Assembly: GCF_055900595.2 (NCBI RefSeq) | Contig: NZ_CM148325.1 | Reading direction: 5' to 3' (one strand) | Length of the DNA: 64,000 bases | Part shown: positions 1 to 3,000 of the stretch, piece by piece | Position numbering within the stretch: position 1 is the first letter of the stretch | Layout: each line of letters starts with the position of its first letter | Program-made: the position numbers

Positions 1-3000
1 CGTCGCGCGGATAGCCCCCCAGTGCGACCCGGTCAGAATGCCCTCTTTCGAGGTGACAGCCTCAGTCGCCGCTTGCGCCGCTGTCGCACGGCGCGGCGTT
101 AACAGTGACGGTCCCAGCATCCCGGCGACAGTTAAGCCGCCGAGTTGTGCCAGAAAACGTCGACGTGATGCCTGAAAGAGATCGTTATTGTTCATTATTT
201 TTCTTCCTTCTTATCGCCGTGAGCCTTACCTGCGGTGTCAGACGCATTCATTTGGAGATATTTCAACAAGGTGCGTTCTTCACGTTTATCGAGGCTGGTA
301 AAGCCAATCATGCCGTTGAGCGTGCCGATCCAACCGTTAGCGTCAAAGTGAGAGATTTCCGGTGCGCCGTGGCATTGATTACAGGTGCCGTTGTACAGCG
401 AATCCGCATAAGCCCAGATCGGTTTGATATCGTTCACCATGTCGCCTTTCTTCATCCACGCGGTGGCCTGCAATTTGCTCCACTCGGTATTGGTATCGGC
501 AACGGTGGTTTTCTCCAGCGTTTTCACCTGCTGCTGAACATCGCCACGAATCGAGGCAACAAAGATGCGTTTGCCAGGGAACTGGGTGAGTACACGCTGA
601 CGTCCTGCGCTTTCCGTCCAGCCAGTGATTTCAATTTGCAGCCAGTCGCCGTCACGTTTAAGGACTTTCACTTCCGAAGCAGGCAGCAGAGAACCAGAGG
701 CTTCTTTATCGCCTTTCGCCGCATAAATTGGCTTAATATCAATGGAGTACAGCGTATCACCACTATCATTTGCACTGGCGCGCAGCTCATCGAACTGCTT
801 ACGGAAGCCGCTACTCATATCCGGCAACTGGTGGGCAATACCTTTATGACAGTCGATGCAGGATTGATTATCTTTCGCTGCCACCTTCATCTGACGTGCC
901 GCTTCAGGATGCTGCTTCGCATGATCCATCGCGTCGTAGTTATGGCAGGAGCGGCAGGTTGCCGAGTTGTTTTCTTTCATTCGCGCCCATTCACGCTCGG
1001 CAAGTTCCGCGCGTTTGGCTTCGAATTTCTCAGGTGTATCAATGGAGTGGGCAATAAAGGTCTGGTAGATGTCGTTGCTCGCTTCCAGTTTACGCTTCAC
1101 CATGCCTGGAATATCCGGCGGGATATGGCAGTCATGGCATTCAGCTCGCACGCCGGAGGCGTTCTGGAAATGCACCGACTGTTTATATTCTTCATACACC
1201 GATTGCATACTGTGGCAACTGACACAAAATTCGGTTGTGCTGGTGACTTTGATACCCACGTGAGGTAACACAATCAGCGCAATGCCAATCACAATCCCAA
1301 TAGCGACCAGCGCCAGTACCGACCAACGAGCACTGGGTCGGCGTAACGCGTTCCAGAGTTTCCGCATAATAGCCCCTGTAAAATTATGGTTTAGTGAAGC
1401 GATCTTAATGAGCAAATATGAACAGCGGCACTGGTCAGGATGAACGGCTTACGGCAGAATATGAACAGATATGAACAGAATGAGTAAAACTCTCTGATGC
1501 CACATCACATTGTTATTGTTGAAGATGAGCCGGTTACCCAGGCGCGATTACAAACCTACTTCACTCAGGAGGGGTATACCGTTTCCGTTACGGCGAGCGG
1601 TGCCGGGCTGCGTGAAATTATGCAAAACCAGCCAGTGGATTTAATTCTGCTGGATATCAATTTGCCCGATGAAAATGGCCTGATGTTAACCCGCGCCCTG
1701 CGGGAACGTTCGACGGTGGGTATTATTCTGGTTACCGGACGCAGCGATCGGATTGACCGTATTGTTGGGCTGGAAATGGGCGCAGACGATTACGTCACCA
1801 AACCGCTGGAACTGCGCGAACTGGTGGTACGGGTGAAAAATCTGCTCTGGCGAATCGACCTCGCGCGACAAGCTCAACCGCTCACTCAGGACAACTGCTA
1901 TCGCTTTGCCGGTTATTGCCTGAATGTGTCGCGCCATACGCTGGAGCTTGATGGCGAACCGATTAAACTAACCCGCGCAGAGTATGAAATGTTGGTGGCA
2001 TTTGTGACCAATCCGGGCGAAATTCTCAGCCGTGAACGTCTGCTGCGTATGCTTTCTGCGCGCCGGGTGGAAAATCCCGACCTGCGCACCGTCGATGTGT
2101 TAATTCGTCGTTTACGTCATAAACTCAGCGCGGATTTACTGGTGACACAACATGGCGAAGGTTATTTCTTAGCCGCTGATGTGTGCTGATAAAAATAGAC
2201 CGAACGAAATCCCCCTGGTGACAGCGAGCGGCGGATATGTTCGCGATCGGCATTTTTCGGCGTCAGGACTAAAATCGGTGGGCTGACATTATCAGACACC
2301 GATTGTCCCTGTAATTGCCTGATCGCTTGCTCAACCGCCAGTTCCCCCTGCCAGACCATTTGATCGCTGGCAGCCATAATCACTCTTCCCCGCTTTAGTC
2401 CGCGATACACCTGATGTGAAAGATAAAATGACACCACGGTCAGCGGCGTTTTCAGGTTGCGCCCTTCACCCATTGCCGCCTCTGCCGCAATCGCCGTTCC
2501 GGCCACAACGTCGATTTCTGGATGGCGCTCCAACATCTCCTGCAACAGGTTACGCTGGATTTCAATATCGTTGTCGCCGAGCGCAATATCGACAATACGC
2601 ACCGGGCTTCCGGCAATGGCGGCGCGGAAACCCTCTACCATCTCCTTACTGCCCCCGGCGTTATCGGGGCCGGGCATCAACAGCACGTTCAGTGGTTTTC
2701 CGTGACTCCATTGCACCAGATATCGCCCTGGTTGATAGCCCATCTGAAACCACGGCACACCAACGCGGCTTTTCACCTGGGGAGCATCAATAGCATTTAC
2801 CAGTTCGATCACCGGCAGACTTGCTACCTGCTTTTGCAGGTCGGGAAATGACGTCGTGCTACTTCCGAGCAAAATGGCCTCTGCCCCCCACTGTTTGCAC
2901 TGGTCGATTTGTGCTTGCTGGGTAGCCAACTGGCTGTAGCCGCCTGCCTCCAGCACTTTTAAATCCACACCGTAGCGGCGAGCAGCCTCCTGCATACCAT

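What the first reader, a model, noticed from the sequence alone, without database searches (positions are those of the whole stretch)
1416..1478. Four tor boxes at the torC promoter, three of them perfect
CTGTTCATAT decamers (seen here as atatgaacag on the + strand) occur at 1416-1425, 1459-1468 and 1469-1478, with a degenerate copy at about 1438-1447, in a 129-bp torC-torR intergenic region. This is the expected TorR operator arrangement and confirms the locus is regulatorily intact.
Basis: partly seen in the sequence, partly recalled or inferred. Interest (0 to 1): 0.15.

Follow-up and report, generated by a model that had tools for sequence, protein, structure and literature searches.

The report
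Known TorR operator at torR–torC
The four 10-base repeats are the already well-studied binding sites ("tor boxes") for the regulator TorR between the E. coli torR and torC genes; they match laboratory strain K-12 base for base, so the finding is correct but ordinary.

Summary
CTGTTCATAT occurs exactly three times on the minus strand (1416-1425, 1459-1468, 1469-1478). A 7/10 copy, CCGTTCATCC, lies at 1438-1447. All four sit in the 129-bp gap between torC (complement 195..1367) and torR (1497..2189).

No 10-mer formed such a triple cluster in any of 300 shuffles of the window.

The four boxes and their spacers are identical to E. coli K-12 and to the published box sequences (boxes 1, 2 and 4 consensus; box 3 degenerate).

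The 79 bp around the boxes are identical in 4,022 of 5,415 complete E. coli genomes. The only common variant seen among the sequences I aligned is a G/A SNP outside the boxes.

The same four boxes, with the same 10/21/22-bp spacing, lie between torR and torC in E. albertii, E. whittamii, Salmonella, Edwardsiella and Enterobacter ludwigii. There the flanking sequence has diverged.

TorR, TorT, TorS and TorC are full length and pass NCBIfam equivalog cut-offs.

Verdict: this is the canonical, already characterised TorR operator, which activates torCAD and autorepresses torR. It is not novel. "Regulatorily intact" fits the sequence but sequence cannot prove it; torA is cut by the window edge and torD lies outside the window.

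Side note: rare E. coli genomes carry one or three copies of the distal box, or a 43-bp deletion between boxes.

The parts
1469..1478 (-). tor box 1 (CTGTTCATAT). It is the distal half of the abutting box1-box2 tandem and lies 18 bp from the torR ATG.
   Evidence: Exact match; identical to K-12; published box sequence (PMC9239176); invariant except one base in Enterobacter ludwigii across 7 taxa.
1459..1468 (-). tor box 2 (CTGTTCATAT), directly abutting box 1.
   Evidence: invariant across the 7 taxa aligned.
1438..1447 (-). tor box 3 (CCGTTCATCC, 7/10), a low-affinity site.
   Evidence: The published box 3 sequence is identical, and TorR gave no gel shift on box 3 alone (PMC9239176). The core GTTCAT is invariant across taxa.
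1416..1425 (-). tor box 4 (CTGTTCATAT), the promoter-proximal site, 8 bp upstream of the torC -10 hexamer.
   Evidence: TGTTCATAT invariant across taxa.
1402..1407 (-). torC promoter -10 hexamer, TAAGAT.
   Evidence: PMC10845959 places the -10 within TTGCT(nnnn)AAGAT. It is conserved as TAAGAT or TAAAAT in Salmonella, Edwardsiella and Enterobacter while its surroundings diverge.
1395..1395 (-). Inferred torC transcription start (+1), giving a 28-nt leader.
   Evidence: Inference. PMC10845959 equates +48 with the first 20 bp of the torC coding region, which implies a 28-nt 5' UTR. Position 1395 is 7 nt downstream of TAAGAT. On this numbering box 4 spans -30..-21.
1368..1496 (.). The 129-bp torC-torR intergenic region, the shared divergent control region.
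   Evidence: A 129-bp 'PtorCAD129' promoter part is used in PMC9436347.
1432..1460 (+). Candidate torR promoter: -35 TGGTCA (1432-1437), a 17-bp spacer, then -10 CAGAAT (1455-1460). This would start transcription inside box 2.
   Evidence: Inference from the sequence. It matches 8/12 consensus positions, below the scan threshold. The box3-box4 spacer that holds TGGTCA is conserved across genera. It agrees with the recalled statement of Ansaldi et al. 2000 that box1-box2 covers the torR start site.
195..1367 (-). torC, pentahaem c-type cytochrome, 390 aa; first gene of torCAD.
   Evidence: NCBIfam NF011606, 880.8 bits against a cut-off of 455; annotation of the collinear genome; 2 aa differences from K-12.
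1497..2189 (+). torR, OmpR/PhoB-type response regulator, 230 aa.
   Evidence: NCBIfam NF008034, 423.8 bits against a cut-off of 275; 4 aa differences from K-12; Asp53 is present by my own count on the sequence.
2162..3190 (-). torT, periplasmic TMAO-binding partner of TorS, 342 aa.
   Evidence: NF008185, 489.7 bits against a cut-off of 200.
3273..6017 (+). torS, hybrid sensor kinase, 914 aa.
   Evidence: NF008543, 1890.7 bits against a cut-off of 982, full-length match 1-913.

Best explanation
Window 1416-1478 is the TorR operator shared by the divergent torR and torCAD promoters of Escherichia coli. It consists of four 10-bp direct repeats (tor boxes), all oriented towards torC (minus strand). 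Their start-to-start spacing of 10, 21 and 22 bp is roughly one, two and two helical turns, which puts them on one face of the DNA. Boxes 1 and 2 abut each other and form the high-affinity site for the OmpR/PhoB-type response regulator TorR. They lie 18 bp upstream of the torR ATG, over the torR promoter and start site, so bound TorR represses its own gene whether or not TMAO is present. When TMAO is sensed by TorT/TorS, phosphorylated TorR also fills the weak box 3 and box 4 cooperatively. Box 4 sits 8 bp upstream of the torC -10 hexamer TAAGAT, in a promoter with no recognisable -35, and bound TorR recruits RNA polymerase to transcribe torCAD. Shown here: the sequence, position, spacing, identity to K-12 and conservation of the boxes, and intact neighbouring genes. 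Taken from the literature: TorR binding to boxes 1, 2 and 4, no gel shift on box 3 alone, and negative autoregulation of torR. Inferred: the exact start sites, the position of box 4 at -30..-21, and the torR promoter hexamers.
For: Exact boxes at the stated coordinates. The cluster is not a chance event (0 of 300 shuffles). The boxes and all spacers are identical to K-12; only 3 SNPs occur in the 129-bp region and none lies in a box. The published box sequences are the same, with TorR gel-shift Kd values of 0.97-3.11 uM for boxes 1, 2 and 4 and no shift on box 3 alone (PMC9239176). TorR-P bound the torCAD promoter, while ArcA-P and FNR did not (PMC10845959). TorR is negatively autoregulated (PMC9436347 citing Ansaldi 2000). 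The region is present in 5,416 of 5,426 complete E. coli genomes, and the 79-bp operator is identical in 4,022. In the 8 E. coli intergenic sequences aligned, the recurrent substitution near the operator lies outside the boxes. As a phylogenetic footprint, the four boxes keep identical spacing between torR and torC in E. albertii, E. whittamii, Salmonella arizonae and diarizonae, Edwardsiella ictaluri and hoshinae, and Enterobacter ludwigii, where TorR is only 79-86% identical outside Escherichia and the flanks have diverged. TorR, TorT, TorS and TorC are all full length and above NCBIfam equivalog cut-offs.
Against: No binding or expression data exist for this strain. The consensus promoter scan finds no sigma-70 promoter in the region; that is expected for an activator-dependent promoter but gives no independent support. 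The primary papers (Simon 1994 and 1995, Ansaldi 2000) could not be retrieved, so the details of autorepression and cooperativity rest on secondary citations and my memory of an abstract. The window's TorR differs from K-12 at four residues (S20T, S46P, H129L, R151L), and their effect is untested. However, the same protein occurs in another E. coli genome, and it is 1 residue from the E. albertii and E. whittamii proteins.
Confidence: 0.97

Rival explanations
1. The operator is present, but the Tor regulatory circuit of this strain does not work. The cause could be the TorR substitutions or a defect in torA or torD outside the window. In that case the boxes would not 'confirm' an intact locus.
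For: Four amino-acid differences from K-12 TorR, including R151L in the C-terminal half. torA is truncated by the window edge and torD is not in the window.
Against: TorR scores 423.8 bits against a 275-bit equivalog cut-off over its full length. An identical TorR occurs in E. coli SCPM-O-B-8794, and the protein is 99.6% identical to those of E. albertii and E. whittamii, so the window allele looks ancestral rather than damaged. In the collinear, 98.5% identical genome 2013C-4282, torA is annotated as a complete CDS.
Confidence: 0.04
2. The repeats are bound mainly by another OmpR-family regulator such as ArcA, whose direct-repeat sites resemble tor boxes, or by FNR.
For: PMC10845959 notes putative ArcA-like motifs that overlap the TorR sites and a weak FNR-like motif over the -10. 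The second-best NCBIfam hit of TorR is ArcA.
Against: The same paper tested binding directly: TorR-P bound the torCAD promoter, and ArcA-P and FNR did not. The boxes always occur next to torR across genera.
Confidence: 0.01
3. The repeats are non-functional products of replication slippage, or a chance occurrence.
For: The distal tandem does vary in copy number (1, 2 or 3) in rare E. coli genomes, and a 43-bp deletion between repeats exists, so slippage and recombination do act on this region.
Against: None of 300 shuffles gave such a cluster. Boxes and spacing are conserved across four genera while the flanks diverge. Published gel shifts show TorR binding. The variants are rare: fewer than about 93 of 5,416 genomes for the one-copy allele.
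Confidence: 0.005

Closest known systems
tor boxes 1-4 of the E. coli K-12 torR-torCAD intergenic region (Simon et al. 1995; Ansaldi et al. 2000)
   Same: Everything that could be tested matches. The four box sequences, their orientation, the 10/21/22-bp spacing, all inter-box spacers, the 129-bp intergenic length and the flanking genes are the same.
   Different: Three SNPs in the 129 bp, all outside the boxes: one next to the torR start codon and two in the torC leader. TorR differs at 4 residues.
Salmonella enterica tor boxes (serovar Cerro 87 study, PMC9239176)
   Same: The same four box sequences are reported, with TorR gel shifts on boxes 1, 2 and 4. Salmonella arizonae and diarizonae loci have the same architecture and spacing.
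   Different: The spacers, the torC leader and the torR-proximal flank differ. In dnd-carrying Salmonella the GTTC cores are also targets of DndCDE; no such system was looked for in this window.
pho boxes bound by PhoB, and OmpR sites at ompF/ompC (the general mode of action of the OmpR/PhoB family)
   Same: Direct repeats with roughly 10-11-bp periodicity are bound head-to-tail by a winged-helix response regulator. The proximal repeat lies just upstream of the -10 and takes the place of a -35 element. This rests on established knowledge of the family; TorR matches the PhoB and OmpR models at 1e-42 to 1e-47.
   Different: The repeat sequence is different. Only boxes 1 and 2 abut; boxes 3 and 4 are single repeats two helical turns apart. 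The high-affinity site also acts as the autorepression operator of the divergent regulator gene.

Membership tests
TorR operator (tor boxes) of the torR-torCAD divergon | Four direct repeats matching the decamer CTGTTCATAT, with boxes 1, 2 and 4 at consensus and box 3 as CCGTTCATCC | tested here: met
   compared with the published sequences in PMC9239176.
TorR operator (tor boxes) of the torR-torCAD divergon | Located in the short torR-torC intergenic region, with all repeats oriented towards torC | tested here: met
   The 129-bp gap lies between torC (complement 195..1367) and torR (1497..2189), and all boxes are on the minus strand.
TorR operator (tor boxes) of the torR-torCAD divergon | Box 1 and box 2 abut; boxes 2-3 and 3-4 are about two helical turns apart (same face of the helix) | tested here: met
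   Start-to-start spacing is 10, 21 and 22 bp. It is identical to K-12 and to four other genera.
TorR operator (tor boxes) of the torR-torCAD divergon | Cognate regulator genes torR, torT and torS adjacent and full length | tested here: met
   All pass NCBIfam equivalog cut-offs with full-length matches and have no internal stops.
TorR operator (tor boxes) of the torR-torCAD divergon | Boxes conserved relative to their flanks in orthologous loci (phylogenetic footprint) | tested here: met
   In the alignment of 7 taxa, the box columns are invariant or nearly so while the flanks diverge.
TorR operator (tor boxes) of the torR-torCAD divergon | Physical binding of TorR to the boxes (footprint or gel shift) | not testable with these tools
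   Published for identical sequences (PMC9239176; PMC10845959); not measured for this strain.
TorR operator (tor boxes) of the torR-torCAD divergon | TMAO- and TorR-dependent induction of torCAD, and TMAO-independent autorepression of torR | not testable with these tools
   Literature only; the primary papers could not be retrieved.

The most novel reading that the evidence does not exclude
The 10 bases directly downstream of box 4 (1415..1406 on the minus strand, TTGCTCATTA) are an in-register 6/10 copy of the tor box. This would make box 4 the first half of a box1-box2-like tandem that reaches into the -10 hexamer. The only common E. coli polymorphism seen in the operator region (G/A at window 1413, position -18 of the torC promoter) falls in the core of this repeat. 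If this fifth half-site is real, the SNP could tune how strongly different E. coli lineages induce torCAD. Likewise, the rare alleles with one or three distal boxes could be natural on/off or gain variants of TMAO respiration.
Probability: 0.06. Interest if true: 0.25.

Novelty: already known. Interest (0 to 1): 0.05.

Why it matters
It matters little beyond annotation. The result shows that this E. coli genome carries the textbook TorR operator unchanged, next to intact torR, torT, torS and torC, so TMAO-inducible respiration is expected to be regulated as in K-12. The cross-genus alignment is a clean phylogenetic footprint of a known operator. The only mildly useful by-product is the list of rare natural alleles with one or three distal boxes, or a 43-bp deletion between boxes. 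These are ready-made tests of the published model that the box1-box2 tandem is needed both for torR autorepression and for torCAD induction.

Tried and rejected
(1) Primary papers. Ansaldi 2000, Simon 1994 and PMC94371 could not be retrieved. I relied on secondary open-access papers and marked what comes from memory.

(2) Consensus promoter and terminator scan of 1250-1650. Nothing reached threshold. The torC -10 was instead taken from PMC10845959 and from cross-genus conservation. The torR promoter hexamers remain my inference (8/12).

(3) Rfam scan of 1100-1700 at E<=1, to test the bis-MGD riboswitch proposed for the torC leader in PMC10845959. There was no match, so no known RNA family lies there. 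This neither supports nor refutes that proposal.

(4) Other TorR sites in the window. Matches with up to 2 mismatches occur at the chance rate. The single further exact decamer lies inside the pepN coding sequence and is consistent with chance (about 0.11 expected).

(5) The genome-collection pattern hit in a Nitrospinota MAG (L015). It is an unrelated GTGTTCATC-type tandem repeat with no TorR or TorC nearby, and I rejected it as a chance match.

(6) The '>=99% identity: 270 records' band for the one-box allele. It proved to be inflated by partial and two-piece alignments of the standard allele. The ranked sample bounds the true number below about 93.

(7) A fifth in-register repeat next to box 4. 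It is not conserved in Salmonella or Edwardsiella, so I kept it only as the low-probability novel reading.

(8) I first assumed the window was identical to strain 2013C-4282. It is not: it is collinear at 98.5% identity with 9 gaps. I therefore re-checked that strain's gene coordinates in the window for the genes I cite.

Full report
**Observation.** The plus strand reads ATATGAACAG at 1416-1425, 1459-1468 and 1469-1478. On the minus strand this is CTGTTCATAT. At 1438-1447 the plus strand reads GGATGAACGG, which is CCGTTCATCC on the minus strand and matches the decamer at 7 of 10 positions. The repeat finder groups all four into one family with start-to-start spacing of 22, 21 and 10 bp.

The flanking ORFs are torC and torR. 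torC is complement(195..1367), 390 aa, with its ATG at 1367. torR is 1497..2189, 230 aa. The gap between them, 1368-1496, is exactly 129 bp.

**Chance.** About 0.11 exact matches to this decamer are expected in 64 kb on both strands. Four are found, three of them within these 63 bp. This is the only place in the window where an identical 10-mer occurs three times without overlap within 70 bp. No such cluster of any 10-mer arose in 300 dinucleotide-preserving shuffles. Looser matches (up to 2 mismatches) elsewhere in the window occur at the background rate: 53 found, 47.5 expected.

**Identity.** A 261-bp query around the site hits 5,416 of 5,426 complete E. coli genomes, always under the annotations torC and torR. 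The window is collinear with strain 2013C-4282 at 98.5% identity, so that genome's annotation maps onto it.

Aligned to K-12, the 129-bp intergenic region differs at three positions. None lies in a box or in a spacer between boxes.

The open literature gives the box sequences as CTGTTCATAT for boxes 1, 2 and 4 and CCGTTCATCC for box 3. It reports TorR gel shifts on boxes 1, 2 and 4 (Kd 0.97-3.11 uM) and none on box 3 alone (PMC9239176). A second paper confirmed that TorR-P binds the torCAD promoter and that ArcA-P and FNR do not (PMC10845959). A third states that torR is negatively autoregulated and uses the 129-bp promoter as a part named PtorCAD129 (PMC9436347).

NCBIfam equivalog models are passed, with full-length matches, by all four proteins (bits versus cut-off):
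- TorR: 423.8 vs 275.
- TorC: 880.8 vs 455.
- TorT: 489.7 vs 200.
- TorS: 1890.7 vs 982.

**Conservation within E. coli.** The 79 bp spanning the boxes (1408-1486) are identical in 4,022 of 5,415 genomes, and the rest are 95-99% identical. I aligned eight E. coli intergenic sequences, including five from the variant band. The recurrent substitution near the operator is a G/A change at window 1413, three bases downstream of box 4. The boxes themselves are unchanged.

**Conservation across genera.** I scanned one genome per species for the pattern TGTTCAT-N3-TGTTCAT-N12-16-GTTCAT-N14-18-TGTTCAT. It returned ten loci. Nine lie between a TorR homologue and a TorC homologue. They come from:
- E. 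coli (two genomes), E. albertii and E. whittamii;
- Salmonella arizonae and S. diarizonae;
- Edwardsiella ictaluri and E. hoshinae;
- Enterobacter ludwigii.

The tenth hit, from a Nitrospinota MAG, is an unrelated tandem repeat with no tor genes nearby.

Outside Escherichia, TorR identity falls to 79-86%, yet the spacing of the boxes is the same 10/21/22 bp everywhere. In the alignment, the columns of boxes 1, 2 and 4, the GTTCAT core of box 3 and a TAAGAT/TAAAAT hexamer are conserved. The torR-proximal flank, the torC leader and most spacer positions diverge. This is a classical phylogenetic footprint. The search was biased towards loci that keep the pattern, so it shows how widely the architecture spreads, not how often it is absent.

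**Promoter anatomy (partly inferred).** PMC10845959 places the torC -10 within TTGCT(nnnn)AAGAT. It also equates +48 with the twentieth base of the coding region, which implies a 28-nt leader.

This puts +1 at window 1395 on the minus strand. TAAGAT (1407..1402) then spans -12..-7, and box 4 spans -30..-21. Box 4 thus sits immediately upstream of the -10, in a promoter with no usable -35 hexamer. For OmpR/PhoB-family activators this is where the proximal repeat normally lies (established knowledge of the family).

On the other strand, TGGTCA (1432-1437), a 17-bp spacer and CAGAAT (1455-1460) make an 8/12 promoter. It would start transcription inside box 2. It falls below the scan threshold. 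It does explain why the box3-box4 spacer is conserved across genera. It also fits my recollection of Ansaldi et al. 2000 that the box1-box2 high-affinity site covers the torR start site. These torR promoter assignments are inference.

**Mechanism.**
1. TorR binds the abutting box1-box2 tandem at all times and so represses torR.
2. TMAO sensed by TorT/TorS leads to phosphorylation of TorR.
3. Phospho-TorR cooperatively fills box 3 and box 4 on the same helical face.
4. This recruits RNA polymerase to the torC promoter.

The sequence features are shown here. Binding and autoregulation come from the cited papers. Cooperativity and helical-phase dependence come from my memory of the Ansaldi 2000 abstract, which could not be retrieved.

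**"Regulatorily intact".** The cis sites and the full-length regulators support this claim, but sequence alone cannot confirm it. torA is cut at the left edge of the window and torD is outside it.

The window's TorR differs from K-12 at S20T, S46P, H129L and R151L. The same protein occurs in another E. coli genome, and it is one residue from the E. albertii and E. whittamii proteins. The allele is therefore more likely ancestral than defective.

**Rivals.** ArcA or FNR binding is excluded by published tests. Non-functional slippage repeats are excluded by conservation and by published binding. A silent defect elsewhere in the circuit cannot be excluded, but nothing points to one.

**Side observations.** The distal tandem box varies in copy number in a few E. 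coli genomes:
- One copy gives a 119-bp intergenic region, as in O157:H7 PV15-279 and O166:H15 JNE21-009. Eleven single-piece hits were seen, and the ranking bounds the total below about 93 genomes.
- Three copies give a 139-bp region, as in ECA64 (sequence read); CB6837 is inferred from the same 159-bp hit span.
- One genome (OkiPb01695) has a 43-bp deletion that joins box 2 to box 4, leaving an 86-bp region.

The window carries the standard two-copy allele. Other items:
- An isolated exact decamer lies inside pepN (60872-60881) and is compatible with chance.
- No Rfam family matches the torC leader.
- The window lacks the elfADCG-ycbUVF fimbrial operon between pyrD and ssuE. A K-12-like strain has it there. 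The contiguous junction is shared by 1,352 of 5,426 genomes.

**Verdict.** This is the canonical, experimentally characterised TorR operator. It is already known and of low interest.

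Noticed in passing
L022 (O157:H7 PV15-279), L006 (O166:H15 JNE21-009), L021 (ECA64); equivalent to window 1459-1478: The abutting distal tor boxes vary in copy number in rare E. coli genomes. One copy gives three boxes and a 119-bp intergenic region. Three copies give five boxes and a 139-bp region. Eleven one-copy genomes were seen, and the total is below about 93 of 5,416. The published model predicts that the one-copy allele loses the high-affinity TorR site.
   Followed up: partly
L007 (E. coli OkiPb01695); equivalent to window 1426-1468: A 43-bp deletion, apparently by recombination between box 2 and box 4, removes box 3 and leaves two abutting boxes in an 86-bp intergenic region. It was seen in one genome.
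   Followed up: partly
window 1413: A common G/A polymorphism lies three bases downstream of box 4, at about -18 of the torC promoter. The window and K-12 carry G. O157 Sakai, E. albertii and E. whittamii carry A. It was the recurrent difference in the five variant-band genomes I aligned, out of 1,393 genomes not identical over the 79-bp operator query.
   Followed up: partly
window 1406-1415 (minus strand): TTGCTCATTA, directly after box 4 and in 10-bp register, matches the tor box at 6/10 positions and overlaps the -10 hexamer by two bases. It is not conserved in Salmonella or Edwardsiella.
   Followed up: partly
window 1426-1437 and 1455-1460: The box3-box4 spacer (CTGACCAGTG on the torC strand) is conserved across genera although it is not a tor box. 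On the torR strand it reads TGGTCA, 17 bp upstream of CAGAAT, which makes it a candidate torR promoter.
   Followed up: partly
window 1401-1404: A GATC (Dam) site overlaps the end of the torC -10 hexamer and the discriminator (TAAGATC). It is conserved in Salmonella and Edwardsiella but not in Enterobacter ludwigii.
   Followed up: no
window 60872-60881 (minus strand): A fourth exact CTGTTCATAT lies inside the pepN coding sequence (nt 188-197 of pepN, 58456..61068 minus strand). It is isolated, and about 0.11 exact matches are expected per window, so it is probably chance.
   Followed up: partly
window about 53778-54013 (between pyrD and ssuE): The roughly 7-kb elfADCG-ycbUVF chaperone-usher fimbrial operon lies here in a K-12-like strain (L023) but is absent from the window. 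The contiguous pyrD-ssuE junction is shared by 1,352 of 5,426 E. coli genomes, so this is a common presence/absence polymorphism.
   Followed up: yes
window 1368-1395 (torC leader): PMC10845959 proposes a bis-MGD-responsive riboswitch in the 28-nt torC leader, extending into the coding region. No Rfam family matches 1100-1700 at E<=1.
   Followed up: partly
window 2162-2189: The 3' ends of torR (plus strand) and torT (minus strand) overlap convergently by 28 bp, as in the annotated reference genomes.
   Followed up: no
E. coli plasmid records: Six of the 5,419 matches to the torC-torR region lie on records labelled as plasmids. They were not examined; they could be mis-assigned replicons or captured chromosomal segments.
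   Followed up: no
L015 9433-9493 (Nitrospinota MAG): A run of GTGTTCATC-type short tandem repeats matched the four-box pattern by chance. No tor genes are nearby.
   Followed up: partly
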